From: a virus | Strand: one strand, 5' to 3' | Virus record (IMG/VR): IMGVR_UViG_3300034356_000609 | Span: 35,810-99,809 of that record | Length of the DNA: 64,000 bases | Part shown: piece after piece, positions 1 through 24,212 of the stretch | How positions within the stretch are numbered: position 1 is the stretch's first letter | How the letters are laid out: every line of letters begins with the position of its first letter | Position numbers and translations under genes: made by a program | The notes under the pieces: generated by a model | What the model was told of the DNA's origin: nothing | What the model saw: the letters and a program-made list of their open reading frames with translations, nothing else | Databases searched by the model: none

Positions 1-3000
1 ACAGGTTGTTTGTATCTAGTTTTAATTAATTGTACTTTACGACCTTTACCACGACTCTCTGCGTTCTTATTAGCTTGGATAATACTACTGTCTACTTCAT
101 CTAAAGTTTCTCCAGGTAACCCTTCCCTCCACAATAGTTTAATACTGTCAAAGAAAGTATGGAATCTCTTTTTAATGTTTGTTTCAGTTACTCTTTCTTG
201 ACCACTTTTGACTGCGTTTGGTACTACATAACCTCTAAGTCTTTGACTTGCAGGGAGTTTTCTTTGAATGTCTTCATACAAACCTACCAAATCTCCTACC
301 AACGCTTTGTCTTCATTGTTTAACTTTTCGTAGTCTGGGTTATTATATTTACCGTCAGTAGTTTCTTTGGGTCTTAAATCCCCTAAGAAGTTATAGTCTT
401 TGTTTTTGTACTCGTCTCTTACCCTAGGGATAGTCCACTCAAAGCTAGGATTTTCTTGTCTAATATATTTAGAGTCAGAAGGAATGGTCTTGGTCCAAAT
501 ATATATAGGGCGTTCTGTTACATCTTCAAACTCTTCTCCCGTATCTTTATCAAATCTTTTGCGTACTATGCTAATGTGATTGGCTTTATACCAGTCAGTG
601 TCACGCATACGTTTATTGACTTCATTAGAATAAAGAACACTATAGTAAGCATCTATTAAATTCTTTCTGTAGATAGCAGATTTAAGGTCTGTTAAAGTTT
701 GAGCTGTAGGCAACTCGTCTAATGCACTAGGGTCTGAAAAGATACCAACGTCTAAATGGTTGCCATCAGTTTCAATAAAGTGGTCTGCCATCTTTTCAGC
801 CTTGGTTTGCATTTCTGCAAGTAAAACTGTCTCAGTAGCGAGTTGACCTCTAATGTTTCTCTTGACACTTTCTACTACTTCGTAGTAATAGTCTGTCTTC
901 TCTTTTGTTTGTAGTGCAAACAATCTTTTGAACAATCCTTTTAACAGAAGTTTATCTGCATCTGTCATGTTACGATTCTGGTCTGCAGCATCCTTTAAAT
1001 CTTCTATCTCATTTTCAATCTCACGGATAGTTTCACTTAACCCTAACTCAACTGCCGAACCTACTATAACTCCATCTTGGTCTCTATAACCTTTAACTGC
1101 ATTAAACAACCTAGTATATGCATCGTTAATCTCTGGGCTCTCTCCATATTTAAGAAAGACTGCCTTAATCTTATCAGCAATAGTTTGTTGTAACTCAAAA
1201 AACTGAGGATCTATTTCTATTCTAGTGTTGTTCTTGAGCCAAGTAGCTAAGTTGTTTTGTGCTTCTACTAGATTTTCTTTTTCTTCAAACAACTTACTTT
1301 GGAGTGCAGTTGTGTTTTGACCTAACGCTTCTGCATCTGCTAAGTCTGTTTCTAGAATACCAATACGAGTCTTAACCTGCTTTACAGCATCTTTACGACT
1401 TTGCTTTTCTATGTTAAACCTCTTAAGTACTGCTTCAGGAATAGTAAACTCAACAACATCAAGTTCTTTTCTTCTCTGCTTATAAGATATAATAGATTCA
1501 GCAATATCCCTTTCTTTTGAGCCTATGGGTTTTTCTGACCCGTCCTCATTAAATATAGAACCTAATCTCTCGTATTGTCTTCTTAGGTCTCCACGTACCT
1601 TACGATCTTCTTCTGTAGAGTCAACGTCTCCAAATACGTCTATGTGTTCTTTTATCTCGTCTAGTAAGGCGGCTCTAGCTTCACGAGCTTCTTCACTTAA
1701 AAGCGATTCTGCCTGATAATACTCATCCGTGTATCTACCTACTGCATACTTTTCTTGGAAATCTCCCAATGCTTTTTCCGCTGCTAGTATATCAGCTTCA
1801 ACTCCTGCCTTTTCTGCTACTTCTAAGTTATGCTGAAGGTCAAGCAAATCAGAGTAGAACTCAGCTTCTTTGAATTTAGTGTTATAGGCTAACTGTTTTA
1901 CTTTAGTTCTTCTTCCTTGCTCGTCATAATAGATCATATCTACCTCACGAGTTAACCCTTGGTAATGTTTATCTACAGTACTAAAGGCACTTACATTCCC
2001 TCTTTGTTTGTTTCTAGCTTCTACACGACGTTCAATGGCTTCTGCTCGTGTAGTTGTATCTATACTTGAGTTCTCTGCTTCTGTTAAATGGACATCTAAG
2101 AACTGTTTAAGTACTTGAACTACAGGGCTGCCAGAACTCGTAGCCATACCCATGTATACATTCCACATACTTCCTCCTTCATATGAAGGGTCCATACCTC
2201 TTTGTAGAAGTATTTGTATGTTCTGTGTAGTTGGCACCCAAGACAAAAAGTACTTTAAGTTTTGAATGTCTGACTCTAGGTTTTTTATCTTCTTAGCTTC
2301 ATTGTTAGCTTGTGCATCTAGTAACAAAGCTTCTTTAGCAGCAAGTTCTTGATTAAGTTGACTGTCTGAAGCTTGTAGCTTTTTACTAATTAATCTAAAA
2401 GGTTCTGCAAGCTGAGAAGCTACGGGAATAATAATAGCTTTTTGAGCAGCAGTACGTAAGTTAGTACTATTGTTTTGTATTCTTTCTAACTTGGTCTGTA
2501 ACTCTTTAACAACTACATCATAGTTTTCTATCTGTCTTCTGCGTTCCTGTAAGAATTCTGCCTTACCAGTTGGGTCTAACGCCAATTGGTCTTTAGTTAC
2601 ATTCATTACAAGTTCAGGCATCAACAAGCTATTAAAGCTTTCTACTTGCTCGTTGATTAAGTCTGATAGGTTTTTAGCATAGTTAAACAAACGTATAGCC
2701 TCTACATCTGACATCTGGCTTAGATTGTCCTTTGTTGTTTTGACTGTTGTTTGAATCCGTTTAAGTATGTTCTCTAATGCATCTATATAACTTACAGTAG
2801 AGTTAATAGTATCTGCTACTCCAGCACTAGATATATTGCCAAGCTTTTGTTTAATTCTTTCAATAGAGCCAAAGCGTGGATCTATCTCTGATAAAGCTTG
2901 AGACATCTGTGCCCAACTAGAACTGTTTAAACTCTCTCGTACATAGTTTTGAAACTTACTTAAATCTATTGAAGGAGGCGTTACTGTGGCACTACTATAG

Positions 3001-4187: not shown

Positions 4188-4193
4188 TATTTA

Positions 4194-4223
4194 CAAATTT
4201 AATCTATTTAAGAACTAAATCAA
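4194..4223 (-). promoter_or_regulatory. Bacteroidota sigma70-type promoter
   Basis: Minus strand TTG-N19-TAAATTTG; the -7 box ends 6 nt before the ATG at 4187. Confidence 0.6.
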
Positions 4224-4831
4224 GGTACTTCACAACTCACCTCTTCAAAGCTAATGCTATTGAGGTCTGGAGTATCTGGGGCACTTGTTTTATCTAGAGA
4301 CAAAGTAAGCTGTAGAGGCTGCTGTCTTAAAGGAGCTTCGTATACTTGAGTATCAGGTATCTGAACAGATGTTTCCATTACTTCAAATAAACTATCCTCT
4401 AAGTCGTTTAACTCCTGTAAAGCTAAAGCGGCATCGTCTTTGTAAAAACCTTCAGGTCTATAACTCACAGGTAACTCAAAAGCTTCTTGTAAAGATACTT
4501 CTTCAAACTTAACTTGATATGCGGCCAATAACTTAGGTGTAATGTATACTTGGATAGCAGCACCATCAGTATAACTACGACCTCCAAAAACAACTCCAAA
4601 TAACTTTCTTGGTATGTTTAACTCATTAGATATAGCAACTGCCGTACTGTCTGCAATACTACGTACTTTCTTAACTGTATTCATACTAGCATCCCTAGAG
4701 TTTACTGGGAGAAATATCTCTCCTGTACCCAGTAGTTTAAATGCATTATTTTTTGTCTTAGCAATCGTAACTGCCTTAGGAGTTATCTGACTGCTAATTT
4801 CTCTAGCTGATATTTTACATGCTTGTGCCAT
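4220..4831 (-). CDS. Hypothetical 203-aa protein in the cargo cluster
   Basis: ORF packed between two giant genes; acidic C-terminal half; Cys only at positions 5 and 200. Confidence 0.75.
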   Translation of the reverse strand: MAQACKISAREISSQITPKAVTIAKTKNNAFKLLGTGEIFLPVNSRDASMNTVKKVRSIADSTAVAISNELNIPRKLFGVVFGGRSYTDGAAIQVYITPKLLAAYQVKFEEVSLQEAFELPVSYRPEGFYKDDAALALQELNDLEDSLFEVMETSVQIPDTQVYEAPLRQQPLQLTLSLDKTSAPDTPDLNSISFEEVSCEVP

Positions 4832-4835
4832 AGTC

Positions 4836-7800
4836 TTATCCGCAAGGATTTATATTAGGTAAGTTATTAATATCGTTTTGGTTAGGATTTGTAGATGGTT
4901 GAGTAATAGGTTTATTTACTACTTCAAACTCTATAGCATAAGGATATTGACCTACATTTTTATCAGTTACAGATTTTACCCATCCTTCTTTTTGCCAGGT
5001 AGCATCTTGATATTCTTGTGTAAATGGAGTAACTTTAGTAATTCTAGTATATACTTGTCTTCCTGTTTTATCAGTCATTCTTATAACTTTACCTACAAGA
5101 TCTGATATTTTAGATAAACCATAATCCTTAGACATTCTTTGTATGTCAGTATTAGCTCTGGTAGTTCTAGTTCTATCCCCTGATATAATAAGATCCATAG
5201 TAGACTTTCCTTTAAACTGAGGTTGCATTTGACCGCCTTGACCATCTGCAAAGTTTTGTGCTATAGGTGTTAGTTTATCTGCTAGGTTAAATTCATCAAC
5301 ACTAGTAGCTGGTTGAATAGTCTCGGTAGGCATACTTTCAGGTGAGTATACACTACGTTCTATTGCAATCAAACTCTTAATGGCCGAGTCTTGTAACCTC
5401 ATGGTTTTTAACTTCTCTGGGTTTGTTCTGGCTAAGAACTCGATGCTTGTAGTTATAGGGGATAGTGTAGTACTAAACATCTTAGTAGAGTATCTTACGA
5501 GAGTCAAATAGGACTTGAACTTTTGCGGCTCTTCCTTCCTCATTGTCTCTAGTTCATTGTAAGACTTTGTTGTGTAGTCTATATAAGCTTCATGAGGTAC
5601 GATACTAGATACATTGTCTGTGTTGAAGTGACCTCCGTATTGCATAAAAGATCCCAATGCCAAATCAGTAAAGAACTCTTTTATCTCAGCAATAGGACTG
5701 TTTAGTCCTTCTAAGAATGCAGTCCTATATAACTTGTTGGTCTCCGACATAACGACACTCTTTAACTTAAAGTTTATCTCACCAGTATTACTTGTCTCTG
5801 GATACAAGTTCTGTACTAGATAATTATTCCTTAAATCAGGATTACTGATTATACCCTCAAAACGTTTTGCAAGGTTGTTAGAAGTGGTCTTTTGCATTAG
5901 ACCGTCTTTACCTCTATAGTATTCTAACAAATTGCCCTTTTCGTTACTAGCTGTTTTTTGGGTATAGTTAAAGATTAGATTTGTCTTTAACCTTTTAATA
6001 GCCTTCATACGAAGTTCTTGACCTGTTATATCATTCTTAGTTAAGAAAGTATTTATAGTCTCATGAACTTCCACAGAGTCAGACAATGGATATATTTGAC
6101 CCATAACCTCTTGTACAAATCCGCTTACATTAAACTGCGCCAATGCAGATTGATTAAACATAAAGTCAATTGCCTCTGCGTTAAAGTATTCTTTTAATCC
6201 TCCCTCTTTGGCAACCGTCTCCGTACTTTGGAATGAAGTTCTATAATTCGTAGTATTAAAGTCAGTAATGCTAGTCAACTCCCTCAACCCACTTTGCTGT
6301 GCTACAACTACACCAAACTGTAATAAATAGGCAATATCCCTCATTGCCTTCTCTTCACCAGTCAATGTCTCATTAGGATTAAAATTAGTAATGTATTGAT
6401 TCAAAGTAGGTACACCCATCATCGCTTCAATATACATAGCTAGCTTTTTCTTAGATCCTTTGATGTTAGCTGCTTTAATTTCTTTGTCTATACCTGCAAC
6501 AAACTTTTCTAGCTTTACATTCCCTGAAGTCTGAACTCGGTTTTTAATAAGAGACATAATAGCTGAGTTCTTACTGACGTATAAGTTCTCCATCTTCTTA
6601 TGTATCTCTGCTCTGTTAGCCATGCTTAGAGCTAGTTTAATTACATCTGAGTTGATGAAGTCCAATACATCTTTTACAGGAGTACCTGCAAGAATCATAG
6701 CATGTGCCAATGGACTAGTCTCTTGGTTTAAACCTAAAAGAATAATCCAATCTTCGTTTGCAATGTCGACGTGTCCGTTTACAAACTCACTCAATACTTT
6801 AGAGATACGATTCGTTCCATCTGCGTCTTTCTTGCCTCCAAGCATTATCTGACCCTCAGCATTTCTGTTGGCCTTAAAGTAATAGGCATTAAACAAACTA
6901 GAAGTATACTTTAGTCCTGCCCTTTGGAATTCTTTCTGTAGAGTATTAATCTTAGCGTCAATACCCAATGCATCTTTAGATAGGATATTTTCCAAGAAAA
7001 TTCTCCAAGATGTTCTAGGATTAAACACATCGGTAGAACTAATCTTCTTTCCAGGTTTAGTATACTGGGTAAGAATGCTGTTGTTGTTTGGAGTAGTTAA
7101 AGAATCATACAACTCTCCTGTCTTTAGAATGGATTTTAAACTATCTACAAGTCCATTGCCTAATGCTTTTTTATAGTCGTCAACTACGGCAATTTCATTT
7201 CTTATATCTTTTATGTCATTGCGTACTTCTGCTAAAATAAACAAAGCCTCCATAGGGTTTTCTCTATCTAGTTTTGCAAGTTCTGCAAACTTTCTAGCTA
7301 TTAGTTTCTTTTCTTTTCTAATATCTAACAAAGTCTCTGACTCTTCTTGACCTACAATCTCATTAACCAGCAACTCCTTAATGCCTTCAATTGCTTCGTC
7401 AATCTCCTCGTTGAGTATGTTTATCTCATCTTTGATGTCTTTGCGTTGTTCGTAGATAGGATTCTCACTCATCTCTGCACGCATCTCTTTTTGAATAGCT
7501 TTTAACCTAGAGAGACTTATCTTAAGTTCTTTTTGACGAGACAACTCGCTGGTATAGTCTTCTACGTCAAACTCTTTTTTAATTACTTCTCCCGACTCTG
7601 ATAAGGCCGTCATAAAGAATGTTAACTTATCAATGTCGTAGTCACCTCCTGTTTTAGTTACTATCTGTGCAGGAAGAATCATTACTGCACCTGCGGATTC
7701 GTCAAGAAACTCCCGAACAATAGCATACTCCATAGAAGAAAATCCTTGTACTGGAATACGTACACCAACCATAGTTAATTTGTCCTTGTGAAGTTCTTTC

Positions 7801-10800: not shown

Positions 10801-12440
10801 GTAATATCTAAAGTTCTAGATATCTGTCTACCATTGGGAAATGTACGTACGTCAGTGCCGATGATATAAGTAAGAGGTTTATAAATCTTAATCTGATCTG
10901 CAGGGTTTAAGTTAGCATTAATCGCAGCAGTTACACGTAACTTTTGGAAGATGGTTGTTAACTGTGAAAGGTTATCAACTATAAACTTTGTAGTTAAGTC
11001 TCTGTTGTTGGGGTTTAGGTAATCTTGATTGGTTAATCCTAGTCCAATGTCTTGTAGAAAAGTCAACAAAGCCGACAAGCGGTTGTCTGTCATATACAAG
11101 TTCATGTCACTTTTCTTAGCTAACCCAGAAGCTATGTTCTTAAAAGTTTGTTCGTAGTCTTTAACTAACGCATCTACGTTTAAGTATTGTTCTCCACTCT
11201 CGTCTATAAGTTTATACTTTGGCCTATACAAAAAGTACTGTGCATCATATTGACCTAGAATATTGCGTACGTTCTGGAATCCTTTTTTCTGCAACGTAGT
11301 TGCAATCATTCCATTATCCTTAATCGAGATATCAACTACGTTAGAAACTACCTCAGGATTGCTTAGAATACCTTTAAAGGCAGATACTAACACCATCTTC
11401 TTGACATCTTTGGTAGATCCTTTAACTCTAGGGTCTGGCATATCTTGAAGTAAGTAGTTAAACTGAGGATACTGCTTAGAAAGATTGAGCATAATGTCAT
11501 ACATCTCCGTGTAAGTAGTCTTACCTGACAATGCATTACTTAGGATTTTCCAGTTCTTTAAGAAATCTCCACTCTTTGGAAGTCCCAATAAATTACCTTC
11601 TAGTTGAATAGCATTACCACTACGTACTAATCCCCCCTCTACCTCATTAGACAGTGAGTTTCTATACGAAGGTAAACCTGTTACTAAGGCAATAACAGCA
11701 CTACCTGCTCTTTGGATTTGTGACTTTTCTTTTGTCTTCCAATCCTCACTATCCTCGTTCTTTGACTCTAAATCTTCAACCCCTACAATACCTTCTTGAG
11801 AAGAATACCAATCTACAAACAAATCAAAGTTCTGAAGAACTTTTTCTAAGTTTACAATCTTTACAATATCTCCCTCAAAGGTTTTGTTTTCTTGGAATCT
11901 TGATAGTATCTCGTTTCTCTTATCAGTCAAAGCGGTAAATACTGAGTACCAGTTTTTACCGTAACCTAATAGGAACTGAAATGTATCGTAAATCTCTTGT
12001 GCTTCTTCTGGTGCATAATGTATAGGAGTTACATTTCCGTCAATCTCAGCTTCTAAGAAGTTGATAGCCATACTACTAGGAGTATTGATAGCCGCTTTGG
12101 TACGTTCTTGTAATTCCCTAACACGTTGCTTTTGTTTCTCTACGTAGTCAACTACCTGATCAACAGAATATCTACCTTCGGCATCAGCAATATACTGGCT
12201 CTTAAAATTAACAAAGAAAGTCCGAGCTACTAACTCTAGTGCAGTCTTTCTATTACCTTCTGTAATTGGATGTGCAAGTAAAGCTCCGTACAGAGGATTG
12301 TCAATTACCTCGTCTCCAACTTTAATCTTATCCAAAGGTTGTTCATTGTTCTGTGTCCATACATAGGCCACAGCTGAAGGGTCTAGAAACTCTAAGTATT
12401 CTTTCTCGTAATTAGTACCTTTAATGCTACAAGCGTTCAT
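4836..12440 (-). CDS. Virion-packaged DNA-dependent RNA polymerase (crAss-like, double-psi beta-barrel) with C-terminal ASCH-like domain
   Basis: 2534 aa; VGVRIPVQGFSSM followed by KTGGDYDIDKL (DxDxD at 7629-7643), equivalent to the DFDID motif of the phi14:2 virion RNAP; also EADAQG and HKFSLIPMIP segments. Confidence 0.92.
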   Translation of the reverse strand: MNACSIKGTNYEKEYLEFLDPSAVAYVWTQNNEQPLDKIKVGDEVIDNPLYGALLAHPITEGNRKTALELVARTFFVNFKSQYIADAEGRYSVDQVVDYVEKQKQRVRELQERTKAAINTPSSMAINFLEAEIDGNVTPIHYAPEEAQEIYDTFQFLLGYGKNWYSVFTALTDKRNEILSRFQENKTFEGDIVKIVNLEKVLQNFDLFVDWYSSQEGIVGVEDLESKNEDSEDWKTKEKSQIQRAGSAVIALVTGLPSYRNSLSNEVEGGLVRSGNAIQLEGNLLGLPKSGDFLKNWKILSNALSGKTTYTEMYDIMLNLSKQYPQFNYLLQDMPDPRVKGSTKDVKKMVLVSAFKGILSNPEVVSNVVDISIKDNGMIATTLQKKGFQNVRNILGQYDAQYFLYRPKYKLIDESGEQYLNVDALVKDYEQTFKNIASGLAKKSDMNLYMTDNRLSALLTFLQDIGLGLTNQDYLNPNNRDLTTKFIVDNLSQLTTIFQKLRVTAAINANLNPADQIKIYKPLTYIIGTDVRTFPNGRQISRTLDITKTGQASMSPTELAEADDLFEKIIAFSTTKEEALKYIKDRGYEVSSLQEPLFESYIEARLAGTQTASFKDWRIDVSSISQALKKAVNSKVVTYSLQQATSYLQKKETELNPFTKFFSNFDVASRPTAYTTAEQKKKFIRSPWSFMTQQASAVNKANNYEELISQPAYARFDYRKNPDILGSIWLNRLFGLPLTKAEIEKNPLSSYTKVVDKTTGPRTINVTDFGGLELKDFDSDNYGGHTTNLHPGDKIIQDFVSFFQSTELENMRFGDKTSSLSTSFSNPILAEKIYVPINVNLLKSPTEEVPIEPELVATFKNYLVSEVTRISNAIEAGEGVAKTTYNKNAKNLFIFNDILPNEIVEEITKATTKEELIAGYHKAVAALPQSLSTYFATQGELFTRELVDIMSTPVNSQGYTVDYSTRLAQTASYLSKLNMINAQLLPAADRKTPPTITSQNLQYLAQVMLKNAFINNVEFLKFFIGDMSNFNVKADYRELFKRPAFSASPGSPVFWDSALQDFFDTDTGQDAISIAYTGVENKFNPVIRTVIYKDVLSFSKSDFETYKKVYDSGNWDTLLEEEKSEFDAYVNNPKEADAQGVVTLDFYRNYLISIGRWDSTKQEKAYQQQVRIAEINVALKGNPANAQELISEKTKLINTTGLTPFPPLKLGHFGPTERDPKQVALHKFSLIPMIPSVVEGRQMEKQMIAMYNTQVNYYTFKSGSKMSDNAEPSDYYEKVTRNGVEYLEVKQNIDDSLVTTLHIENLREQQYQAPKYKDESTLATQMMKLIFGDFYEFGELSGDFSLDTQERISGLYNEFTNNLNNLVQFEVIKLEKKLGITRTNGQIDGINQLQLARYVAEQFEEKEVSEGLRNFIKVDEQGNFVNPLDANKDRDEVEALILNIFNNKVISQKIFGESFIQVAGTGFERIRFANPTQQQLEQFGANDLKFYTLNPTTGETNPMEVKIAFNPKKHAGLLNLTYEGKKVGSLQVLNSILTSSTETANSWKELHKDKLTMVGVRIPVQGFSSMEYAIVREFLDESAGAVMILPAQIVTKTGGDYDIDKLTFFMTALSESGEVIKKEFDVEDYTSELSRQKELKISLSRLKAIQKEMRAEMSENPIYEQRKDIKDEINILNEEIDEAIEGIKELLVNEIVGQEESETLLDIRKEKKLIARKFAELAKLDRENPMEALFILAEVRNDIKDIRNEIAVVDDYKKALGNGLVDSLKSILKTGELYDSLTTPNNNSILTQYTKPGKKISSTDVFNPRTSWRIFLENILSKDALGIDAKINTLQKEFQRAGLKYTSSLFNAYYFKANRNAEGQIMLGGKKDADGTNRISKVLSEFVNGHVDIANEDWIILLGLNQETSPLAHAMILAGTPVKDVLDFINSDVIKLALSMANRAEIHKKMENLYVSKNSAIMSLIKNRVQTSGNVKLEKFVAGIDKEIKAANIKGSKKKLAMYIEAMMGVPTLNQYITNFNPNETLTGEEKAMRDIAYLLQFGVVVAQQSGLRELTSITDFNTTNYRTSFQSTETVAKEGGLKEYFNAEAIDFMFNQSALAQFNVSGFVQEVMGQIYPLSDSVEVHETINTFLTKNDITGQELRMKAIKRLKTNLIFNYTQKTASNEKGNLLEYYRGKDGLMQKTTSNNLAKRFEGIISNPDLRNNYLVQNLYPETSNTGEINFKLKSVVMSETNKLYRTAFLEGLNSPIAEIKEFFTDLALGSFMQYGGHFNTDNVSSIVPHEAYIDYTTKSYNELETMRKEEPQKFKSYLTLVRYSTKMFSTTLSPITTSIEFLARTNPEKLKTMRLQDSAIKSLIAIERSVYSPESMPTETIQPATSVDEFNLADKLTPIAQNFADGQGGQMQPQFKGKSTMDLIISGDRTRTTRANTDIQRMSKDYGLSKISDLVGKVIRMTDKTGRQVYTRITKVTPFTQEYQDATWQKEGWVKSVTDKNVGQYPYAIEFEVVNKPITQPSTNPNQNDINNLPNINPCG

Positions 12441-12442
12441 CT

Positions 12443-15400
12443 TTATGTGCAGGGTTTAGGATTAATACTATCTGCGGTTTTATCTCCGTTTCCTAAGCTA
12501 GTTCTACCTAACTCAGAGTTAATATCAATGCCTAGCGAAGATAACACATTTAATGTGCTTTGTGAATTTGCTCCTCCTAGTTCAGGTATATTTTCTGTAA
12601 TAGCATCTATACTAGTAGGTTGTGTAGGAGCAGGTTGAACAGCTACTTGCTCTTGAGGAGTATTTGTTCTTGCGTTAATCTGCTTGATGACTTGGAAGTC
12701 ATAACCTAAACTAATAATGGTATCTGAAATAGGGCTCTTATGCTTCTCTATAACAGGTGCTTTGTTAGATGCTAGAGTTAATCCTTTTATTGTTATAACT
12801 CCTGGCTTAACAAATAAGCTTCCTTCGTTTTCGTTTAAGTAGTTATGTATAGCTAAGAAAGTCTTACTATCGTACTTACTAAACTTTGGATTCTTACCAT
12901 TCCACATAGATTTGATAAACCATCCATTAGTAGCAAACCCCGTAATAGGAGTCCACTCACCCTCAGACTCTGCTCCAGTACCTGTGCCTGTTGATTTATA
13001 TACTAGGAAATGTTCTCCTCCTGCAAATACATCTACGATTCTACGGCCTGATACTTCTGCACGGAAACTACCAATAGTCCAAGGTGCACTTTCTTTATCA
13101 AGTTTTTGTCCCAAGTCAAATAGTTTCTGAGTCTCTGCATTTACTAAGGATGCTGAACCACTTGAGCCATCTATCTTTTGATTTATCCAAGGATTAAATA
13201 TACTTGGTTTGTTTTGTGCGTCTTGTGTAACTACTACTTCTACATTACTACCTACTGTTTTAGGGTTGTTTTGTACTCCAGGTATCTGTGGTGCTTTAGG
13301 TTGCCTAGATGTATCAGGGATACTACTCTCTTCATACTCTGAGGCAAATGCTAGAATGTTGATTGTTTTAGGAGACAAATCAAAGTCTTCACTAAGTATA
13401 GAGTAAGTCGATTGTTGGGTGCTCCATTTAGATACTGCCGAAGGGTATCTAGGATTCATCAAGTACATGCTATCAGTAAACTTCTGTAGTGTGTTAAACT
13501 TCTTGTTCTTGAAGTCAATAATGTGAGTGTTGCCTTCCGTATCTACCGCTACAATATCCATCGCCCCTGCTACTCCGAAGTATCCTGTAGCATCTTTTTC
13601 TTCTTGAGTAAACTCACGATGTACAATTAAACCTTCTGTAAATACTTTCCATCCCTTGTCTTCAAATTCTTTTGCTACTGATTGCATCTCTGCTACCAAA
13701 GCATCAAACTGTTCTTGAGTTACTTCTAACTCATAGCCCTGCTTGTCTCTTAGAGGTTTGTTCATCTGACGTACTTCTTTTAAGTAATCGTCAAGTTTTT
13801 TAACTGGTTTACCTCCTAAGATGTCACGACCTAAAATATCGACAAAGTTTCCTACAGCTGCACCCATCTCCATGTTACGTACGCTGTCTTCTGTATTTAC
13901 TTTCTTTTCTCCAAGTACTCTTTGAACAAAAGCCGACTGACGTTCATATCTATTGCCGTTAATTACATAACCTTCCTTGCTAGGATCACCTATGGCTTTT
14001 GACTCTGTAATCAGTTTTTCTAACGCAGCCACTGTGTTTGCTTGAGTTTTCTCAGTAGGCATTGCTATTTGTTCTTTTACTTTAACTGCTTCTTTCTGAA
14101 CACTAGCAGTAGGATAGGCTAGAGTAGGAATGATGTCAGAGTTATTGAACTCTATCACATATCCAGAGTTCTGTTGAATTGTTTGTTCAGGATTATTTGG
14201 ATCTTCAATAGTCTTTATTTCTTGGGCATAAGGAATACTTACCAAAGACACTTCGTGCTTTACTCTGCCTCCTACTAGTATTTGTTTTCTCAAAGAGTCA
14301 AACTGTTGGTCTACTGGGGTAGGGTTTGCTTTCCCTTTAGATGTAGGTAGGTATAAAAACAAACTGCTCTTACCATTACTGTCTTTGTTACCCTCAGTGT
14401 CAAACTTTTGAATCTTACCCGACCCATCGATAGTAGCAAATACCAATGTATTAATAGCACTGAAAGTAATAGGGTTAGAACCAATCTTAGGGTAAACTAA
14501 ACCGTTTATCTTGTCCTTAGTAGGATCGGCTTGTAACCACAAGTTTGTTGTAGTTACACTTCCGTCAGATTCTATGACACTCTTACCATTTTTAACTAAA
14601 AGTAATAACTTACCCTCTTTGAATTGCACCACGGCTTCTCCAAACTTACGACCATCTGCCATTTGTACAGATACCTTACGGCCTCGATTTAATGCCATCA
14701 ATTCCTCTATGGTAGCGTTCTCTTTAATCTTGTCCACTTGGCTTACATCAGCTACTGATACTTTGTCTATCATCTGTGTAGAGAAGATATAATCTCTTAC
14801 ACTAGCCTTCATAAAGGTTACAGGGATTAATCTCTTAAACTTCTCATAGAGTTCTACCATTTTCTCATCAGACAAAGTGGGAGTAGATTGTATCTCGTTG
14901 AATATGTCTTCTATCTCTCTGAGAACTTCTGTGCCTAACACCTCTTCAATTACAGTAAACATATCGACAAGTACTGGCTTAGTCTTGGAAGGTTCTTTAG
15001 TAATTGATTTGATAATCTTTTCTTGTGCTTGAAAGTAAGGATTGTTACCTTTTGCCTCAAAGAAAAGAGGAGAGGTAGAACTCACATTAGATGTCTGTGC
15101 AAGGGTAGACTTCTGTTCTTCAGTAACTGCAGGTTCTAAAGTAACCGCAGGTTCTACAATAGGAAGTACAACTACCTCAGTTACAACTTCTTCTGGAACT
15201 GTTGCATCTATTGTTGTCTCCACTACTGCCTCTATAGGAGTTACTCCTAAGTTAACTTGAGTTGCTTTATCTGCCTTACCGATAAACTTACTTGTAAAAT
15301 CCCCTACGATGTCAAGCATGTCAAACATGTGAGTACCTGTATCTTCCATTATAGGCATACCTTTACCTACAGTATCCATTAGGTTTAATGTCTCTTGGAT

Positions 15401-18400
15401 GTTTTCTGCAGATTCACCAGCGGCTTGCATTACTGCAGCCATCTTAGCTTTAGCAGAGTCAAGTGATGCTGAGTTTGCCACATCTACGAGTAAACCATTT
15501 ATTAGTTTGGTTCTAGCATTGCTGTATTCCTGTTGATCAACAAAAGTCCCTAAGATAGAACTACCTGTAAAATCTATTGGACTTTCCTCTAACTGCTTAA
15601 TGCTTTCTTCAAACGCAACAGTTACATCTTCAGGCAATAACTCAGGAGCAGTAAATGTTACTCCTGCTTCTTCTATAGTTACTTCTTCTCTAGTCTCAAC
15701 TTGCTCTTGGGTAGCTTTAACATCGCTAATGTATTTGTTTATCTTGTCGGCATTCTGAGCAACAAACTCTATGAATCTAAACTTATCGTAAAAGATTTCT
15801 TGTTCAAATGCTTGATCGCCTGTCAGCAATCTAGAGACAGCTTGAAACTTCATAGCAACATTATCCATTAAGGACTCTTGCTGTTCGATACTAACATTAC
15901 CTTTAGCAATCGTATTTAAAACCGCCTCGTTTAAGATAGTGTTTATCTTTTCCTTACGTTCTGTTAAATCGTCATGCTCGTTCTTAATAACTGCTAGAAC
16001 CTCAGTAAGTTCTTCAAACTGCTCTTCACTTAAATCCTTCAAAGAACTATAACGTTTGATTGGATCTGTCTCTTCTTCTCCTTCTTTCTCTGCTTCTAGT
16101 GTACTTGCAGTTTTAGTTTTAGCGTTAAGGTTCTCAAGAAAGTTTTCTATTACCGCCTCTGAGTCTTTGTCTAGGTTTTCTAAGTGTCGGTCTAAATCTC
16201 CACTTAAAAACATGTACAACTCTTTACCTCTATCAGGACTCATCATTGCCTGAACTAAAGAATCTTCTAGTTCTTCTATTGTATCAAAACCTCCGATAGA
16301 AGTCGCGGGTACTTTATTCTCTAATTGATCTACAATAGGGTTGTATGTTCCATCCTCAAATGCTCTCTCTTGTGCTACAACTCTATCAGTTTTAATCTGT
16401 GCTAGATTGTCTCTATATCTTCTTAAACTTTCTACAAAGTATTCAGGTCTTTGATTTACACGAGCCTCTGCTGTCAACTGTTCTATCTGAGCTGACATGT
16501 TTTCTAGATTCTCAGAATCTAATCCTCTAGATAAATTAACTTTATTGTCTATATTTTTATCTAGAACTGCTTTCTTATCAGCAGCAGTCATCTGACCATA
16601 AAAGTCAGATCTTTCTTTATAGTTATTAATTGTTCTACTTGCTTCCTCTGCCTGATTAATTAAATCTTCTCTTTGAGCTTCTGTGTATTGAGTAGCACCA
16701 GCATCTGCAAGTTTCTTTTCTATGTCTTGCTTCTTTAATACTTTTTCAAAGTAGTCAAACTGCATAATAGGGTCACTCATCAAATCATCCAAAGTTTCAA
16801 TCTCCTTGTTAGTTTGAAAGTTTCTTAGATTCTTGATTCCGTTTTGTTGCTCTATAGTTTCTAACTCTTGAATCTTAGCAATAGCAACAGAGGCTTGCTG
16901 TGGAGTAAGGTTGCCTGCTTTTAGTTCAGTATTAATTTTATTTTTATAATACTGACTATTCATCATAATATCAAACAACTGCCCTGTCTTACGATTCTTT
17001 TCGTAGTTTGATACTTGTGTCCCTAAACCAATTGGAGGTCCTAGGAATGCACCAGAGAAAGCATTTACGATGTCTTGGGTTTCTAGTTCTCTAGGAGCTT
17101 CTCCTTTCATTGCTGCCACACCCATATGATTGTCAGCAAAGTAGTTCATTAGTTCAGCCGTTACTTCTTCAAGACCTTCTTCTATTCCTCTTTTAGCTAC
17201 GAATCTAGCACCTGCACCAAGCTTACCTAAGTTTGATAATGATTGAGTTGCTAAGTAGTCTAGGGTCTTGCCAGAAAATGTCTTTCCAAAAACATCTCCA
17301 TACAAGGTTCTATACTGTTGGAGACTACCTGTCCACTTGTTCTTGTTGAAACCTTTTACTTCGAAGTCATCTAAGTACTTCATATCAGGAAATATGTTCT
17401 CTGTAATGACTTCTATTCCAGTAGTCAAAGCAGCAATAGTGTGGGCTTTCCCTCTAGCGTCTTTAATTCCCTTTTGATATAACTCGTTGTAAGTAGCTGC
17501 AAACTGTTGTGGATATACTAAGGCTCCCATAGACATTGCACTTGGTATTCTATCTGCCAATGCTCTTACTAAGCCATTACTACTCTGAGATACAGTAGAC
17601 CTTAGTGCTTGTCCGTAACTACCTGTAGCTGTTAATACTTTATTAAATTGTCCAGCTCTTTGAGCACTCATCAACCCCCTAGCAGTTAAACTGTTGAGAC
17701 TGGACTTCAATGCTCTACCTCCTAAACCTGTAACTCCTGCACCTCCATATACGGTTGCTATCACCAACGGTGTTGTCTCTGCACCTGTATATAACAAAGA
17801 TGTTGGTTGAAACTTCTGATTGCCTTCACCATCTACAAAATAAAAGTCCATTCCTGTTTGGAACTCCCCTTTATTATTCTGTATATCAAAGTTTATCAAC
17901 TCTCTAGGAGAGACGTAATTACTTATACGTCTACTTGTAGTTGCTAACGCATCCCAACCTGTAACTATACCTAAGCCTTCAGTTATATTAGTTCCTAATT
18001 TAACAACCGCAGAACTTAAATACCCAGCAGTCTTAGCTGCAACAGCCATTCCTTTCTCTAATCCACTTAGTTCTCCTGAGTAGTATAACTTACTTTCTTT
18101 GAGAATTGCTTCTTGCTCCTCTAGATAAGAACCTGCAAAGTTTTTAATAGACGCATCTTTCTTCATAGCATCATAGCTATAAACTTCGTTTGTCTTACCT
18201 ATTAACTTTTGATATACTTCTAGTTCCTTCTTAGAGGAATTAAACTGCTGTTCTACTTTCTTGTATTCCTCAGGACTTAAGTTTGCTTTCTTACTAGTGT
18301 TGATTAAATCCTCTTGTTTGCGAACCACCGTAAGAGCTGCACTACTTAATTGGTTACTTATAGATTCCCCCAATTGTTGGTAGGCATTTATAATATGATT

Positions 18401-19555
18401 ACGTGTATTATCATATCTGTTCTCAGCGATTGCTTCTCCTACAGTTAAAGTTGTATTCTGTTCAAACCTTTGAAGTGCTTGTTCATTTAATACTTTTTCT
18501 CCTCCTAATTCTAAATCTTCAGGAGTCAAAGGACGATTTAAATATTTGTCTGGATATGCTTGTCTGATGAGTGGACCAAGTACTAGGTTAGTTATACCTC
18601 CAAGTGCTACCTGCTTCTTTAAATAATCATCTACGTTTGTAGATTGAGAGATTTCAGTTATTAATTGCTGAGCACGTTGTCCTCCTGCAATATTAAATAC
18701 TTTATTCTGATAAGTCTTATCTAAAGACTCCTTAAGTTTAACTAACTCTGCCTTTCTACCAGCATTTACATCTGCCCCAGAGGCAGCAAGGTTCATAGCT
18801 GCTCCTTGAGGCAATTGACTTAATTGCTGTGGAGTGTACGTGTATCCTAATTGATTTAACTCTTTGTCTATCTGTGCATCTAACGCTTTCTTAGATTCTT
18901 GTATCTCATTAAGGTCGTCGCTATTACTTAAAAACCTACTAGCAGTAGCTTGTAAATTTGCATAACGACTACTTGCAGTAGCCTTTTGCTGTGCAATAGC
19001 TTCTGGTGTTAAATTGTAAGTATCTGCAGTAGCAAAACCTTTATTCAACAGTTTAGCTACTTGCTCTGATGCAGCACTAATCTGAGAGTTTTTATCTGTA
19101 ATACCCCAAGTGTTTTTTGTTAATTCTCCTCCATATATTTTTAGAGGATTAGTTACATTCTTAGTGTGAATGTCTAACTCCTCTTGTGGAGTTAAAAAAA
19201 ACTTCTGGTCGTATACAGTACTAAGTTTCTTCTGAGGTGCAGGAGCCACATTGCCTGCGGCATCTAAAGCTTCTGGGTTAGGTATATTTCTTTTGTATTC
19301 CCCACTTTGAATCATAGCTGCCAATGATTTGTTAGAGGGAACAGGTTTTGGTGGAGCTACTGTAGGTGTAGTTTTAGGTACAGGAGCAGCTGCAGTACCC
19401 ATTGACTGATATACACCTAACGTACTGTTAGCGTAAAAATTAGTCCTTACTGCAGCAACTTGACTATCAAGTTCATTACCCACACTAAATGCTTTGTCAG
19501 CACTTACACCTTTGGACATAAGCCCTATTGCCTTTACGGTACCTGGAGAAAACAT
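12443..19555 (-). CDS. Giant virion cargo/ejection protein with C-terminal PD-(D/E)xK nuclease-like domain
   Basis: 2370 aa, largely helical; Gly/Ala-rich hydrophobic segments with IEEGLEEV; GVAGAMDIVAVDTEGNTHIIDFKNKK and QQSTY near the C-terminus; directly upstream of the RNAP gene. Confidence 0.8.
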   Translation of the reverse strand: MFSPGTVKAIGLMSKGVSADKAFSVGNELDSQVAAVRTNFYANSTLGVYQSMGTAAAPVPKTTPTVAPPKPVPSNKSLAAMIQSGEYKRNIPNPEALDAAGNVAPAPQKKLSTVYDQKFFLTPQEELDIHTKNVTNPLKIYGGELTKNTWGITDKNSQISAASEQVAKLLNKGFATADTYNLTPEAIAQQKATASSRYANLQATASRFLSNSDDLNEIQESKKALDAQIDKELNQLGYTYTPQQLSQLPQGAAMNLAASGADVNAGRKAELVKLKESLDKTYQNKVFNIAGGQRAQQLITEISQSTNVDDYLKKQVALGGITNLVLGPLIRQAYPDKYLNRPLTPEDLELGGEKVLNEQALQRFEQNTTLTVGEAIAENRYDNTRNHIINAYQQLGESISNQLSSAALTVVRKQEDLINTSKKANLSPEEYKKVEQQFNSSKKELEVYQKLIGKTNEVYSYDAMKKDASIKNFAGSYLEEQEAILKESKLYYSGELSGLEKGMAVAAKTAGYLSSAVVKLGTNITEGLGIVTGWDALATTSRRISNYVSPRELINFDIQNNKGEFQTGMDFYFVDGEGNQKFQPTSLLYTGAETTPLVIATVYGGAGVTGLGGRALKSSLNSLTARGLMSAQRAGQFNKVLTATGSYGQALRSTVSQSSNGLVRALADRIPSAMSMGALVYPQQFAATYNELYQKGIKDARGKAHTIAALTTGIEVITENIFPDMKYLDDFEVKGFNKNKWTGSLQQYRTLYGDVFGKTFSGKTLDYLATQSLSNLGKLGAGARFVAKRGIEEGLEEVTAELMNYFADNHMGVAAMKGEAPRELETQDIVNAFSGAFLGPPIGLGTQVSNYEKNRKTGQLFDIMMNSQYYKNKINTELKAGNLTPQQASVAIAKIQELETIEQQNGIKNLRNFQTNKEIETLDDLMSDPIMQFDYFEKVLKKQDIEKKLADAGATQYTEAQREDLINQAEEASRTINNYKERSDFYGQMTAADKKAVLDKNIDNKVNLSRGLDSENLENMSAQIEQLTAEARVNQRPEYFVESLRRYRDNLAQIKTDRVVAQERAFEDGTYNPIVDQLENKVPATSIGGFDTIEELEDSLVQAMMSPDRGKELYMFLSGDLDRHLENLDKDSEAVIENFLENLNAKTKTASTLEAEKEGEEETDPIKRYSSLKDLSEEQFEELTEVLAVIKNEHDDLTERKEKINTILNEAVLNTIAKGNVSIEQQESLMDNVAMKFQAVSRLLTGDQAFEQEIFYDKFRFIEFVAQNADKINKYISDVKATQEQVETREEVTIEEAGVTFTAPELLPEDVTVAFEESIKQLEESPIDFTGSSILGTFVDQQEYSNARTKLINGLLVDVANSASLDSAKAKMAAVMQAAGESAENIQETLNLMDTVGKGMPIMEDTGTHMFDMLDIVGDFTSKFIGKADKATQVNLGVTPIEAVVETTIDATVPEEVVTEVVVLPIVEPAVTLEPAVTEEQKSTLAQTSNVSSTSPLFFEAKGNNPYFQAQEKIIKSITKEPSKTKPVLVDMFTVIEEVLGTEVLREIEDIFNEIQSTPTLSDEKMVELYEKFKRLIPVTFMKASVRDYIFSTQMIDKVSVADVSQVDKIKENATIEELMALNRGRKVSVQMADGRKFGEAVVQFKEGKLLLLVKNGKSVIESDGSVTTTNLWLQADPTKDKINGLVYPKIGSNPITFSAINTLVFATIDGSGKIQKFDTEGNKDSNGKSSLFLYLPTSKGKANPTPVDQQFDSLRKQILVGGRVKHEVSLVSIPYAQEIKTIEDPNNPEQTIQQNSGYVIEFNNSDIIPTLAYPTASVQKEAVKVKEQIAMPTEKTQANTVAALEKLITESKAIGDPSKEGYVINGNRYERQSAFVQRVLGEKKVNTEDSVRNMEMGAAVGNFVDILGRDILGGKPVKKLDDYLKEVRQMNKPLRDKQGYELEVTQEQFDALVAEMQSVAKEFEDKGWKVFTEGLIVHREFTQEEKDATGYFGVAGAMDIVAVDTEGNTHIIDFKNKKFNTLQKFTDSMYLMNPRYPSAVSKWSTQQSTYSILSEDFDLSPKTINILAFASEYEESSIPDTSRQPKAPQIPGVQNNPKTVGSNVEVVVTQDAQNKPSIFNPWINQKIDGSSGSASLVNAETQKLFDLGQKLDKESAPWTIGSFRAEVSGRRIVDVFAGGEHFLVYKSTGTGTGAESEGEWTPITGFATNGWFIKSMWNGKNPKFSKYDSKTFLAIHNYLNENEGSLFVKPGVITIKGLTLASNKAPVIEKHKSPISDTIISLGYDFQVIKQINARTNTPQEQVAVQPAPTQPTSIDAITENIPELGGANSQSTLNVLSSLGIDINSELGRTSLGNGDKTADSINPKPCT

Positions 19556-19570: not shown

Positions 19571-21232
19571 TTATTTACTTAGCTTCTCTTCCATTGCATT
19601 CTGCACTAACTTATCAATTTCAGCTTTAGGCTTATTAGGATAGATAGCTTTAAATCCAGCTTCTATTTCAGCTTTTGTCTTGGCTGCTTTTTGTTCTGGA
19701 GTTTCTTTTGCTGCAGTTGCTTTAGGAGCATTTCTTTGTAATACCTCAATTGTATTGCCACTCGCCATTACGTCAAAGATAGAACGAGTCAACAAGTCAC
19801 TTGCAGATGTTTCTACTCTACCAAGTCCAGAAGAACGATTTAATACAATCTTACTGTTTGTTGCCCCTCTAATAGCTGAATCATAAAATGCTTTAAGACT
19901 AGCCAACTCGGTAACATACTTGTTCTTATTAACTGCACTTAACTTCTTGGGGTCGATGTTATTGATTTGTGTAATAACATCGTCAATCTGTTGCTGTGGC
20001 GTTTTGGCAGGATCCAACTTAAAGTCCTTACTAAGTAAATTTGGAACCCCTTTAAGAATACCTAAACTTGAAGTACTTGCTACGTTGTAGTTTTCAATGT
20101 CATTCTCTACGGTAGCAGTTAATCTATCTTGTGCTCCTTCAGCATTAATCTGACTAATTTTATTTCTATGCTCTAGTCCAATAAGGAATACTTTGTCTTC
20201 CTTTAAGTCAACCTTTGTATTCTCATAGGCTAGCTTTTTAGAGAAGCCTGTTAAGAATCTTTTTGTAAACAAGTCAGTGTACTCACCTGCATCAAACTCA
20301 TCAGGATTCATTTCAATGTTTGTCTTGGTAGCGTTAATTACTGACTCTTGACTTTCTATAATGTTTTGAAGCTGACGGATACTTTCTTTTTGTGCTTCTG
20401 TCCTTTGGTTAGGAGGTATTGATTCTAAAGAAGACAAACCACCGAGTGCCTCTCTACGAGTTGTCTCTGCTAGTATCTTTTCCTGTTTGTTGTGTCCTAC
20501 CCATACTTGATATGCAGCTCCATCACCCATTCTATACATTTCAGCTTGTGCATGAATCTGTAGTTGGCGTTGTTCTGCTGGAGTCATTCCAAGCATTGCT
20601 CTCTCATAAATGTCTTGTTGGCGTTTACGAGTATACTCAACCTCTTTTAAGTATCCTTGCGGACCTTGTTCAATACGTTCAAACGTCTCTGCAGGAATTT
20701 CTTTTTCTGCATCAGCTAATTTCTTACTGATGTCTATGTACTGCTCGTAAGATTTATTTTGAACAATCTCAGTATCCAAACCTCCATTCTGAATGTACTC
20801 TTGTGCATCTTGCATGTATACAAGATCATTATCAGAATTACGTTTATCCTTAGCCATACCACTCAACTCTTTGGTACGTCGTTGATACTCCATACCATTC
20901 TTTAGAGCTATCTTAATGTACTTATCATTCTCTAGTGGTTTGCCTATGTTCATTACAGCTTCTACGTTGTTAATGTTTGCAAAGTCAAGTCCTGCGTTTT
21001 CGTTCACGTTCTTTACAAACTTACCCATCTCTTGGTCAAAGTACTTAAGTGCATTCTCGTTAACAATGGTACCACGTAACTGCTGATACTTATCTACCTC
21101 TTGCTTAATCTTTTGTCGGCCTTCATCGTACATCTCTTGCTTCTTTAAAGCAACTTTGATTAAGTCCTCTGCTGGTAGGGGACTTATATAATCATGAGAG
21201 ACAAATCTGGTATGTTGTGCTGAAATAGCCAT
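19571..21232 (-). CDS. Putative internal virion (cargo) protein
   Basis: 553 aa helical, Cys-free; N-terminus YISPLPAEDLIKVALKKQEMYD and position between cargo protein 1 and the giant genes fit crAss-like synteny. Confidence 0.65.
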   Translation of the reverse strand: MAISAQHTRFVSHDYISPLPAEDLIKVALKKQEMYDEGRQKIKQEVDKYQQLRGTIVNENALKYFDQEMGKFVKNVNENAGLDFANINNVEAVMNIGKPLENDKYIKIALKNGMEYQRRTKELSGMAKDKRNSDNDLVYMQDAQEYIQNGGLDTEIVQNKSYEQYIDISKKLADAEKEIPAETFERIEQGPQGYLKEVEYTRKRQQDIYERAMLGMTPAEQRQLQIHAQAEMYRMGDGAAYQVWVGHNKQEKILAETTRREALGGLSSLESIPPNQRTEAQKESIRQLQNIIESQESVINATKTNIEMNPDEFDAGEYTDLFTKRFLTGFSKKLAYENTKVDLKEDKVFLIGLEHRNKISQINAEGAQDRLTATVENDIENYNVASTSSLGILKGVPNLLSKDFKLDPAKTPQQQIDDVITQINNIDPKKLSAVNKNKYVTELASLKAFYDSAIRGATNSKIVLNRSSGLGRVETSASDLLTRSIFDVMASGNTIEVLQRNAPKATAAKETPEQKAAKTKAEIEAGFKAIYPNKPKAEIDKLVQNAMEEKLSK

Positions 21233-21239
21233 AGTTTAG

Positions 21240-24204: not shown

Positions 24205-24212
24205 GTAATTAC

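What the first reader, a model, noticed from the sequence alone, without database searches (positions are those of the whole stretch)
1..19555. Terminal-cysteine chain: four consecutive ejected proteins have Cys only at termini that face each other
Seen in sequence (manual scan): the 2370-aa protein has one Cys (C2369, ...INPKPCT). The 2534-aa RNAP has two (C4 MNACS; C2533 ...INPCG). The 203-aa protein has two (C5 MAQACK; C200 ...VSCEVP). The 1395 visible residues of the last protein have one (C3 MSCF). That is 6 Cys in about 6,500 residues, all within 5 residues of an end, giving one C-terminal/N-terminal pair at each of three gene junctions. The first protein has no N-terminal Cys, and the four upstream cargo proteins (553, 958, 651, 471 aa) have none. 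Established: N4 virion RNAP is Cys-free, and crAss-like cargo proteins are thought to exit unfolded through the tail. Inference: head-to-tail disulfides link the cargo into one ordered chain, formed in oxidising conditions after lysis and reduced in the host cytoplasm, fixing ejection order and stoichiometry. The 203-aa protein would be a linker. Shared metal sites are an alternative. I am not aware of a description of this, but could not search.
Basis: partly seen in the sequence, partly recalled or inferred. Interest (0 to 1): 0.92.

Follow-up and report, generated by a model that had tools for sequence, protein, structure and literature searches.

The report
Terminal cysteines chain crAss cargo proteins
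Four consecutive giant proteins of this crAss-like phage, its virion RNA polymerase among them, have no cysteine except one at each end that faces the next protein; relatives keep the pair wherever the genes are split and lack it where they are fused, which points to untested end-to-end disulfide links joining the injected proteins into one thread of about 816 kDa.

Summary
The four minus-strand proteins (2370, 2534, 203 and, at full length, 2146 aa) hold 6 Cys in 7,253 residues, where about 92 are expected. All six lie within 5 residues of the six ends that face a neighbour. The two outer ends have none.

In 80 related loci, 113 low-Cys junctions carry both a C-terminal and an N-terminal Cys, 19 carry neither, and only 1 carries one alone. 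Proteins that fuse the first two partners have no Cys at the former junction. Cultured crassviruses phi14:2 and crAss001 follow the rule, and in crAss001 one partner gene lies on the other strand.

Cyanopodophage A4 has the same signature, and there cryo-EM shows the disulfide directly (gp27 Cys1715 to gp26 Cys5, PMC12002296).

Best reading (0.6): head-to-tail disulfides make a "split polyprotein". Ordered ejection and reductive release are inferred, not shown. I found no paper that describes this for Crassvirales.

This scan has reported the same rule before on other DNA (106 notes, at least 96 genomes). Specific to this window are the 203-aa double-ended linker and a mobile ASCH-like module in the polymerase protein.

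The parts
12443..19555 (-). Chain member A, 2370 aa (261 kDa), gp47/g067-like virion protein. Its only Cys is C2369 (codon 12449-12451), 1 residue from the C-terminus; there is no N-terminal Cys.
   Evidence: blastp to crAss001 gp47 E 7e-6 and phi14:2 g067 E 3e-3
4836..12440 (-). Chain member B, 2534 aa (286 kDa), virion RNA polymerase of the crAss two-barrel type. Catalytic DYDID motif at residues 1600-1604 (nt 7629-7643). Cys only at C4 (12429-12431) and C2533 (4842-4844).
   Evidence: homology to phi14:2 g066 and crAss001 gp50; the D-x-D-x-D columns are invariant in alignment A1
4220..4831 (-). Chain member C, a 203-aa (22 kDa) acidic linker. Cys only at C5 (4817-4819) and C200 (4232-4234). 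The C-terminal clasp motif L-x-F-E-E-x-x-C is conserved.
   Evidence: the clasp is homologous to the C-terminal tail of the polymerase protein of L012, which has no linker gene
3..4187 (-). Chain member D, g065/gp49-like. 1395 aa lie in the window; the full protein is 2146 aa (246 kDa) at genome C1:33556-39996. Its only Cys is C3 (4179-4181), in the invariant N-terminus MSC(F/I)AxIKSP. Zincin-type HExxH at residues 263-267 (nt 3387-3401). No C-terminal Cys.
19571..27758 (-). Four Cys-free upstream cargo-type proteins (553, 958, 651, 471 aa), in the gp45/gp46 position. They lie outside the chain.
4875..5342 (-). Mobile module of about 145 aa, ASCH/PUA-like, inside member B just before its C-terminal Cys.

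Best explanation
The four proteins are the RNA-polymerase cargo block of a divergent crAss-like phage. A is gp47/g067-like, B is the two-barrel virion RNAP, C is a small linker, and D is the g065/gp49-like protein with a zincin motif. Like other ejected phage proteins, they are purged of cysteine. The exception is one Cys at each end that meets the next protein.

I propose the following steps. The C-terminal tail of each protein docks on the N-terminal region of the next through junction-specific flanking motifs. The two thiols then form an intermolecular disulfide once the particle is out of the reducing cytoplasm. The result is a linear A-B-C-D thread of 7,253 residues (about 816 kDa), colinear with gene order. 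It is the disulfide-linked equivalent of the single polyprotein that some crassviruses encode.

Only links at the extreme termini keep the chain unbranched, so it could pass the portal and tail channel as one partly unfolded strand. The lack of any other Cys prevents off-pathway crosslinks. Thiol reductants in the host cytoplasm would then release the subunits.

Shown here: the sequence rule, its conservation, and its dependence on gene splits. Shown elsewhere: such a bond exists in the phage A4 virion. Inferred: the bond in crassviruses, when it forms, ordered ejection, and reductive release.
For: (1) Cys is depleted and placed at the ends: 6 Cys against 92.5 expected, one in each of the six junction-facing ends.

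(2) In 80 related loci, 218 chain proteins hold 316 Cys in 477,312 residues, and 284 of them lie within 10 residues of an end. The junction table is 113 both, 19 neither, 1 N-terminal only, 0 C-terminal only; Fisher 4e-22, not corrected for phylogeny. There are 129 distinct junction pairs, with the N-terminal Cys at position 3-6 and the C-terminal Cys 0-8 residues from the end.

(3) Outer ends are free: 20 of 23 complete first members lack an N-terminal Cys, and 42 of 43 complete last members lack a C-terminal Cys.

(4) Fusion removes the pair. In L006, L028, L049, L077, L080, L083, L087 and L088 the gp47-like part and the RNAP are one protein of 3,764-4,798 aa (more than 4,267 aa in the truncated L006 copy). 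There is no Cys at the former junction; the few internal Cys sit in the RNAP core.

(5) The signal is at protein level, not DNA level. In crAss001, gp47 (only C2339) is on the opposite strand to gp50 (C5, C2404) and gp49 (only C5). phi14:2 shows g067 with C1797 as its last residue, g066 with C3 and C2179, and g065 with C3. Pairs persist with unrelated genes inserted between the partners (L042, L047). Gaps between partner genes range from -7 to +86 nt.

(6) Family conservation: 36 of 37 D homologues keep C3, and almost all have no other Cys in more than 2,100 residues. All 5 linker homologues keep both Cys.

(7) Structural precedent: in the A4 virion, cryo-EM shows the C-terminal helix of gp27 docked in gp26 and a Cys1715-Cys5 disulfide (PMC12002296). 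These are the only Cys of the two proteins. Pf-WMP3, Pf-WMP4 and TR020, about 25% identical, keep the same pair.

(8) Disulfides do exist in crAss001 virions, in the tail and gp57 (PMC10172136).

(9) Complex prediction of the linker with D residues 1-340 gave weak support. Score 0.60, best of 3 controls 0.00. The mark was reached by 58 of 80 solved complexes and 2 of 110 mismatched pairs, but at 0.60 or under by only 7 of those 80 and by both mismatches that passed. The runs agree in at least 36% of contacts, and the partner's pLDDT is at least 43.
Against: No experiment shows the bond in any crassvirus. The crAss001 atlas and the gp66 paper do not mention cargo cysteines, and cargo density was unresolved.

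The A4 proteins show no detectable sequence homology to these proteins, so the precedent is an analogy.

The rule has exceptions. L089 has a split gp47-like/RNAP pair without Cys, and in L018 the upstream Cys lies 19 residues from the end. The link is therefore not indispensable at every junction.

Gut phages live at low redox potential, so the time and place of oxidation are unknown.

The loci are related to each other, so the counts are not independent events.

The complex prediction is only a weak pass and gave no contacts, so Cys-Cys proximity was not seen.
Confidence: 0.6

Rival explanations
1. The paired terminal Cys are ligands of a shared metal site (Zn or Fe) that clamps the two ends together, rather than forming a disulfide.
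For: It explains the same pairwise co-occurrence. Acidic residues are common next to the C-terminal Cys, for example FEEVSCEVP and EEDPFKC, and could add ligands.
Against: Each end offers only one Cys, and the 129 junctions show no conserved His or second Cys nearby. The one solved example with this signature shows a disulfide, not a metal.
Confidence: 0.1
2. Each terminal Cys acts on its own. It might tether the protein to another virion part (portal, tail barrel, muzzle), or mark an end for processing or another covalent chemistry. In this reading the apparent pairing is a by-product.
For: crAss001 tail proteins are rich in inter-subunit disulfides. The window's small tail-region proteins also carry terminal Cys.
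Against: Independent roles do not predict that the C-terminal and N-terminal Cys of a junction are gained and lost together (0 C-terminal-only and 1 N-terminal-only in 133 junctions). They also do not predict that the outermost ends of the chain lack Cys, or that the pair disappears on fusion.
Confidence: 0.1
3. The Cys work only after ejection, in the host cytoplasm. They might act as a redox or cysteine-switch control of the RNAP or of the zincin-like domain of protein D, or in assembling the RNAP complex. In this reading there is no chain in the virion.
For: D carries an invariant HExxH at residues 263-267, close to its N-terminal Cys3. The gp66 preprint suggests that gp65-type proteases activate the RNAP.
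Against: The A|B and B|C junctions have no protease domain yet follow the same rule. Free thiols in a reducing cytoplasm give no obvious reason for strictly terminal placement or for purging all other Cys.
Confidence: 0.1
4. The pattern is chance, a composition effect, wrong start calls, or a DNA signal at gene junctions that happens to encode Cys.
For: None found. Start codons were called mechanically.
Against: The probabilities are about 1e-16 to 1e-32. The pattern is conserved down to about 25% identity. Partners on opposite strands or separated by inserted genes keep the pair. Gaps between genes vary from -7 to +86 nt. Both TGT and TGC codons are used.
Confidence: 0.01

Closest known systems
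Cyanopodophage A4 (Anabaena phage A-4L) ejection proteins gp27 and gp26, with the Cys1715-Cys5 disulfide seen by cryo-EM (PMC12002296)
   Same: Two consecutive large internal/ejection proteins. The upstream one has a single Cys 2 residues from its C-terminus (…NPCQF), and the downstream one has a single Cys at position 5. The window has …INPKPCT|MNAC… and …INPCG|MAQAC…. The pair is conserved in Pf-WMP3, Pf-WMP4 and TR020.
   Different: A4 has one link, not a chain of three. It has no RNA polymerase, and no sequence homology is detectable. The A4 paper reports the bond as one stabilising contact of a pentameric pre-ejectosome, not as a general rule tied to gene splits.
RNA-polymerase cargo block of cultured crassviruses: phi14:2 g067-g066-g065 (g066 = gp66 RNAP) and crAss001 gp47, gp50, gp49 (PMC10172136; bioRxiv 10.1101/2020.03.07.982082)
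   Same: Homologous proteins in the same order, downstream of the tail/muzzle and cargo genes. They share the catalytic D-x-D-x-D motif and the zincin motif in the last protein, and they show the same terminal-Cys rule.
   Different: The window's lineage is very divergent: 21-25% identity, with no PHROG or Pfam hit. It has an extra 203-aa double-ended linker and an ASCH-like insertion. The published descriptions do not mention the cysteines.
Cys-suppressed genome-ejection operon of Schitoviridae (N4 gp50-gp52; DEV gp71-gp73; PMC11445570)
   Same: Giant virion RNAP and companion ejected proteins are strongly depleted of Cys. That paper explains this by passage through the oxidising periplasm.
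   Different: N4 and DEV proteins have no Cys at all, terminal or otherwise. Their RNAP is a different (T7-like) enzyme family (established knowledge, not tested here).
Fused crAss polyprotein forms (three proteins in one ORF, 'likely cleaved'; gp66 preprint)
   Same: The order of modules is the same. The chain proposed here is colinear with such a polyprotein.
   Different: The link is a peptide bond, not a pair of terminal Cys, and the fused forms lack Cys at the junction.

Membership tests
Crassvirales RNAP cargo block (gp47/gp50/gp49 type) | Giant protein with the two-barrel RNAP catalytic D-(F/Y)-D-x-D motif and homology to phi14:2 gp66 | tested here: met
   DYDID at residues 1600-1604; these columns are invariant in A1; blastp to g066 E 1.8e-9 and to gp50 E 3e-9; tblastn to a Kolpuevirus 'putative RNA polymerase'
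Crassvirales RNAP cargo block (gp47/gp50/gp49 type) | Flanked by a gp47/g067-like protein and a g065/gp49-like protein with a zincin-like HExxH | tested here: met
   A to gp47 E 7e-6; D to g065 E 3e-13; H263, E264 and H267 invariant in 33 sequences
Crassvirales RNAP cargo block (gp47/gp50/gp49 type) | Lies at the end of the structural operon, after terminase, portal, major head protein, the muzzle-type giant protein and small cargo proteins | tested here: met
   PHROG hits for terminase, portal, major head protein and a 1865-aa virion protein, all on the same strand upstream
Crassvirales RNAP cargo block (gp47/gp50/gp49 type) | The proteins are packaged in the virion and ejected | not testable with these tools
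   Inferred from MS/MS of phi14:2 and crAss001 virions
A4-type disulfide-linked ejection protein pair | A sole or near-sole Cys within a few residues of the C-terminus of the upstream protein, and at position 3-6 of the downstream protein | tested here: met
A4-type disulfide-linked ejection protein pair | An intermolecular disulfide observed in the virion | not testable with these tools
   Shown only for A4
A4-type disulfide-linked ejection protein pair | Sequence homology to A4 gp27/gp26 | tested here: not met
   No blastp hit better than E about 2. The window therefore may work like the A4 pair but is not filed as a member of that protein family.
Cys-suppressed ejection proteins (Schitoviridae type) | Cys frequency far below that of the rest of the proteome | tested here: met
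   0.08% against 1.28%
Cys-suppressed ejection proteins (Schitoviridae type) | Complete absence of Cys | tested here: not met
   Six terminal Cys are retained and conserved

The most novel reading that the evidence does not exclude
Terminal-Cys clasps are a general device of podophages. They appear in Crassvirales and, independently, in Saffermanviridae. Separately translated ejection proteins are turned into one disulfide-linked 'split polyprotein'. This is threaded through the tail in gene order as a single strand of about 0.8 MDa and unlinked by the reducing host cytoplasm. Redox chemistry would thus set the order, stoichiometry and release of the virion RNA polymerase in the most abundant phages of the human gut.
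Probability: 0.4. Interest if true: 0.9.

Novelty: new variant of a known kind. Interest (0 to 1): 0.8.

Why it matters
How crassviruses pack and deliver about 1 MDa of RNA-polymerase proteins through a narrow tail is an open question. The crAss001 atlas could not resolve these cargo proteins and only guessed that order depends on packing and mutual interactions. A conserved end-to-end tether gives a concrete mechanism that is cheap to test on phages already in culture: non-reducing gels, disulfide-mapping MS and Cys-to-Ser mutants. It explains why gene splits and fusions in this block are tolerated. It also extends a single structural observation in a cyanophage to a sequence rule that lets ejected protein chains be read from genomes alone.

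Tried and rejected
- Megablast of the block against GenBank phages found no match.
- PHROG and Pfam scans of the four proteins found nothing usable.
- Several first-try coordinate or accession slips were corrected or dropped.
- The first literature query matched unrelated "crass…" words. Later queries found no description of cargo cysteines in crassviruses.
- DNA-level explanation (a junction signal encoding Cys): rejected, see the fourth rival.
- Cyclisation of single proteins (own N-terminus to own C-terminus): rejected, because the first member has only a C-terminal Cys and the last only an N-terminal Cys, here and in relatives.
- Lipoprotein or CaaX-type modification: rejected. There is no signal peptide or lipobox, and the C-terminal Cys distance varies from 0 to 8.
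- Pfam and PDB sequence searches of the 145-aa module gave nothing. Only the fold search gave weak ASCH-type matches.

Full report
**What is there.** The window is the structural arm of a 99.8-kb crAss-like phage genome (single contig; the window is C1:35810-99809). On the minus strand, in order, lie:
- terminase (48242-50248), portal (45695-48142) and major head protein (42856-44385);
- a Cys-rich 1865-aa virion protein (28385-33982);
- four Cys-free proteins of 471, 651, 958 and 553 aa;
- the four genes of the finding.

By blastp, A (2370 aa) is gp47/g067-like. B (2534 aa) is the homologue of the phi14:2 gp66 and crAss001 gp50 virion RNA polymerase, with DYDID at residues 1600-1604. D is g065-like with an invariant HExxH. 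C (203 aa) has no known family. The lineage is very divergent from cultured crassviruses, at 21-25% identity.

**Checking the observation.** The last protein runs off the window; in the genome it is 2146 aa and still has only Cys3. The pattern across the four proteins is therefore:
- A: C-terminal Cys only;
- B: one Cys at each end;
- C: one Cys at each end;
- D: N-terminal Cys only.

That is 6 Cys in 7,253 residues, against 92.5 expected from the 1.28% Cys of the other 67 ORFs. Each of the six junction-facing ends holds exactly one, within 5 residues of the terminus. The placement probability is about 8e-17.

**Close and distant relatives.** Six IMG/VR loci found with the polymerase, 80 more found with an alignment of its core, and database homologues of C and D all follow the rule.
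- In the 80 loci, 218 chain proteins hold 316 Cys in 477,312 residues. 284 of these lie within 10 residues of an end.
- At low-Cys junctions, the upstream C-terminal Cys and the downstream N-terminal Cys are both present 113 times and both absent 19 times. One is unmatched: in L018 the upstream Cys sits 19 residues from the end.
- The N-terminal Cys is at position 3-6. The C-terminal Cys is 0-8 residues from the end.
- 20 of 23 complete first members lack an N-terminal Cys, and 42 of 43 complete last members lack a C-terminal Cys.
- The loci are related, so these are not independent events. Even so, the rule spans proteins down to about 25% identity and many different ways of cutting the roughly 7-9 thousand residues into 2-5 genes.

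**Splits and fusions.** In eight loci the gp47-like part and the polymerase form one protein: L006 (a copy cut by the contig end, more than 4,267 aa) and L028, L049, L077, L080, L083, L087 and L088 (3,764-4,798 aa). The fused protein has no N-terminal Cys, the protein before it has no C-terminal Cys, and no Cys lies at the former junction. The few internal Cys lie in the polymerase core.

Within the window's own clade the linker gene is present in the window, L001, L002 and L013-L015, always with both Cys. L012 and L016 lack the linker gene. In L012 the linker's C-terminal clasp (L-x-F-E-E-x-x-C) sits at the end of the polymerase protein, and the B|C pair is gone.

One counter-example exists: L089 has a split gp47-like/RNAP pair without Cys.

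**Protein level, not DNA level.** In crAss001, gp47 (only C2339) is encoded on the strand opposite to gp50 (C5, C1334, C2404) and gp49 (only C5). phi14:2 has g067 with C1797 as its last residue, g066 with C3 and C2179, and g065 with C3. In L042 and L047, unrelated Cys-containing genes lie between partners that keep their Cys. Intergenic distances range from -7 to +86 nt.

Each junction class has its own conserved flanks. For example, D-type N-termini read M-x-x-C-P-N-x-N-S-x-E-W in many lineages and MSC(F/I)AxIKSP in this one. This fits specific docking of cognate ends.

**What is known.**
- Suppression of Cys in ejected proteins is described for N4-like phages and attributed to passage through the oxidising periplasm (PMC11445570). 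I confirmed 0 Cys in N4 gp50, gp51 and gp52.
- The crAss001 atlas lists disulfides in the tail and in gp57 but says nothing about cargo cysteines. It leaves the order of cargo ejection open.
- The gp66 preprint does not mention cysteine. [quoted passage not shown]
- The nearest precedent is cyanopodophage A4. Cryo-EM shows the C-terminal helix of gp27 inserted in gp26 and a Cys1715-Cys5 disulfide (PMC12002296). I checked that these are the only Cys of the two proteins, and that relatives at about 25% identity keep exactly this pair. A4 proteins are not detectably homologous to the crass proteins.
- I reached the A4 paper through earlier notes of this scan, which report the same rule on at least 96 other genomes. 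I re-tested the claims I use.

**Mechanism.** The best-supported reading is a head-to-tail disulfide at each of the three junctions. This gives a linear thread of about 816 kDa, colinear with the polyprotein forms.
- Terminal placement keeps the thread unbranched, so it could pass a narrow channel.
- Purging all other Cys avoids wrong crosslinks.
- Reduction in the host would free the subunits.

These functional steps are inference.

A complex prediction of the linker with D residues 1-340 gave weak support. The score was 0.60 against 0.00 for the best of 3 controls. The mark was reached by 58 of 80 solved complexes and 2 of 110 mismatched pairs, but at 0.60 or under by only 7 of those 80 and by both passing mismatches. 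Contact agreement was at least 36%, and the partner's pLDDT at least 43. No contacts were reported.

The rivals are a shared metal site, independent roles of each Cys, a role only after ejection, and chance. All explain the joint gain and loss of the pair, the free outer ends, and the loss on fusion less well.

**Verdict.** I class it as a new variant of a known kind, namely a disulfide-linked ejection-protein pair extended to a multi-link chain that includes the virion RNAP and follows gene splits. I found no description of it for Crassvirales in the searchable literature.

Noticed in passing
window 4875-5342 (-), inside the 2534-aa RNAP protein (residues about 2376-2517): A module of about 145 aa is 91% identical in DNA to L003/L004, 83% to L005/L006 and 74-79% to L033/L048, while the rest of those proteins is only about 24% identical in protein. 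It sits at different positions: before the RNAP core in L006 and L033, near the C-terminus here. It is absent from L012-L016. This suggests a recently exchanged mobile domain. The AlphaFold model (pLDDT 76) gives weak but coherent matches to ASCH/PUA-like proteins (YqfB ac4C amidohydrolase, DUF984, ASCH, YTH; best E 3e-3). The motif is S-G-x-R-T-R-T-T-R … T-W-x-K-E-G-W.
   Followed up: partly
P0008 residues 182-321; L002 18703-25719; L012 14632-21624: Close relatives of protein D carry an insertion of about 186 aa after residue 150 that the window's D lacks. It scores weakly for ART-PolyVal, an ADP-ribosyltransferase domain of polyvalent proteins (E 6.5e-4, below the Pfam cutoff).
   Followed up: partly
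window 35997-37919, 37931-38479, 38644-39153 (-): Small Cys-rich proteins between the head genes and the 1865-aa protein also carry Cys at their very ends. The 640-aa protein has C4 and C7. The 182-aa protein has 12 Cys, including positions 6, 7 and the last 5 residues. The 169-aa protein ends in Cys. They may correspond to the disulfide-stapled tail hub and ring proteins of crAss001.
   Followed up: no
genome C1:23792-28195 (+) and C1:31740-33041 (-), outside the window; window 56472-58361, 44417-45589, 41830-42771 (-): Further long Cys-free ORFs of 1467, 433, 629, 390 and 313 aa. The 1467-aa ORF lies on the opposite strand just beyond protein D and may be another packaged or ejected protein.
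   Followed up: no
L089 (2044-aa then 2207-aa proteins); L018 (2064-aa then 2604-aa proteins): These are exceptions to the rule. L089 has a split gp47-like/RNAP junction with no Cys on either side. In L018 the upstream Cys lies 19 residues from the C-terminus.
   Followed up: partly
L042, L047, L028: Small Cys-containing ORFs (69-229 aa) lie between chain partners that keep their terminal Cys. They may be inserted selfish genes, or in L028 a spurious ORF.
   Followed up: no
L092 (Pf-WMP3), L093 (Pf-WMP4), L094 (TR020): Cyanophages of the Saffermanviridae conserve the A4 gp27/gp26 terminal Cys pair: the only Cys of the upstream protein lies 1-2 residues from its end, and Cys5 is in the downstream protein. 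The upstream proteins are annotated as 'ParB-like nuclease' and the downstream ones as 'tail fiber', which looks wrong for internal ejection proteins.
   Followed up: yes
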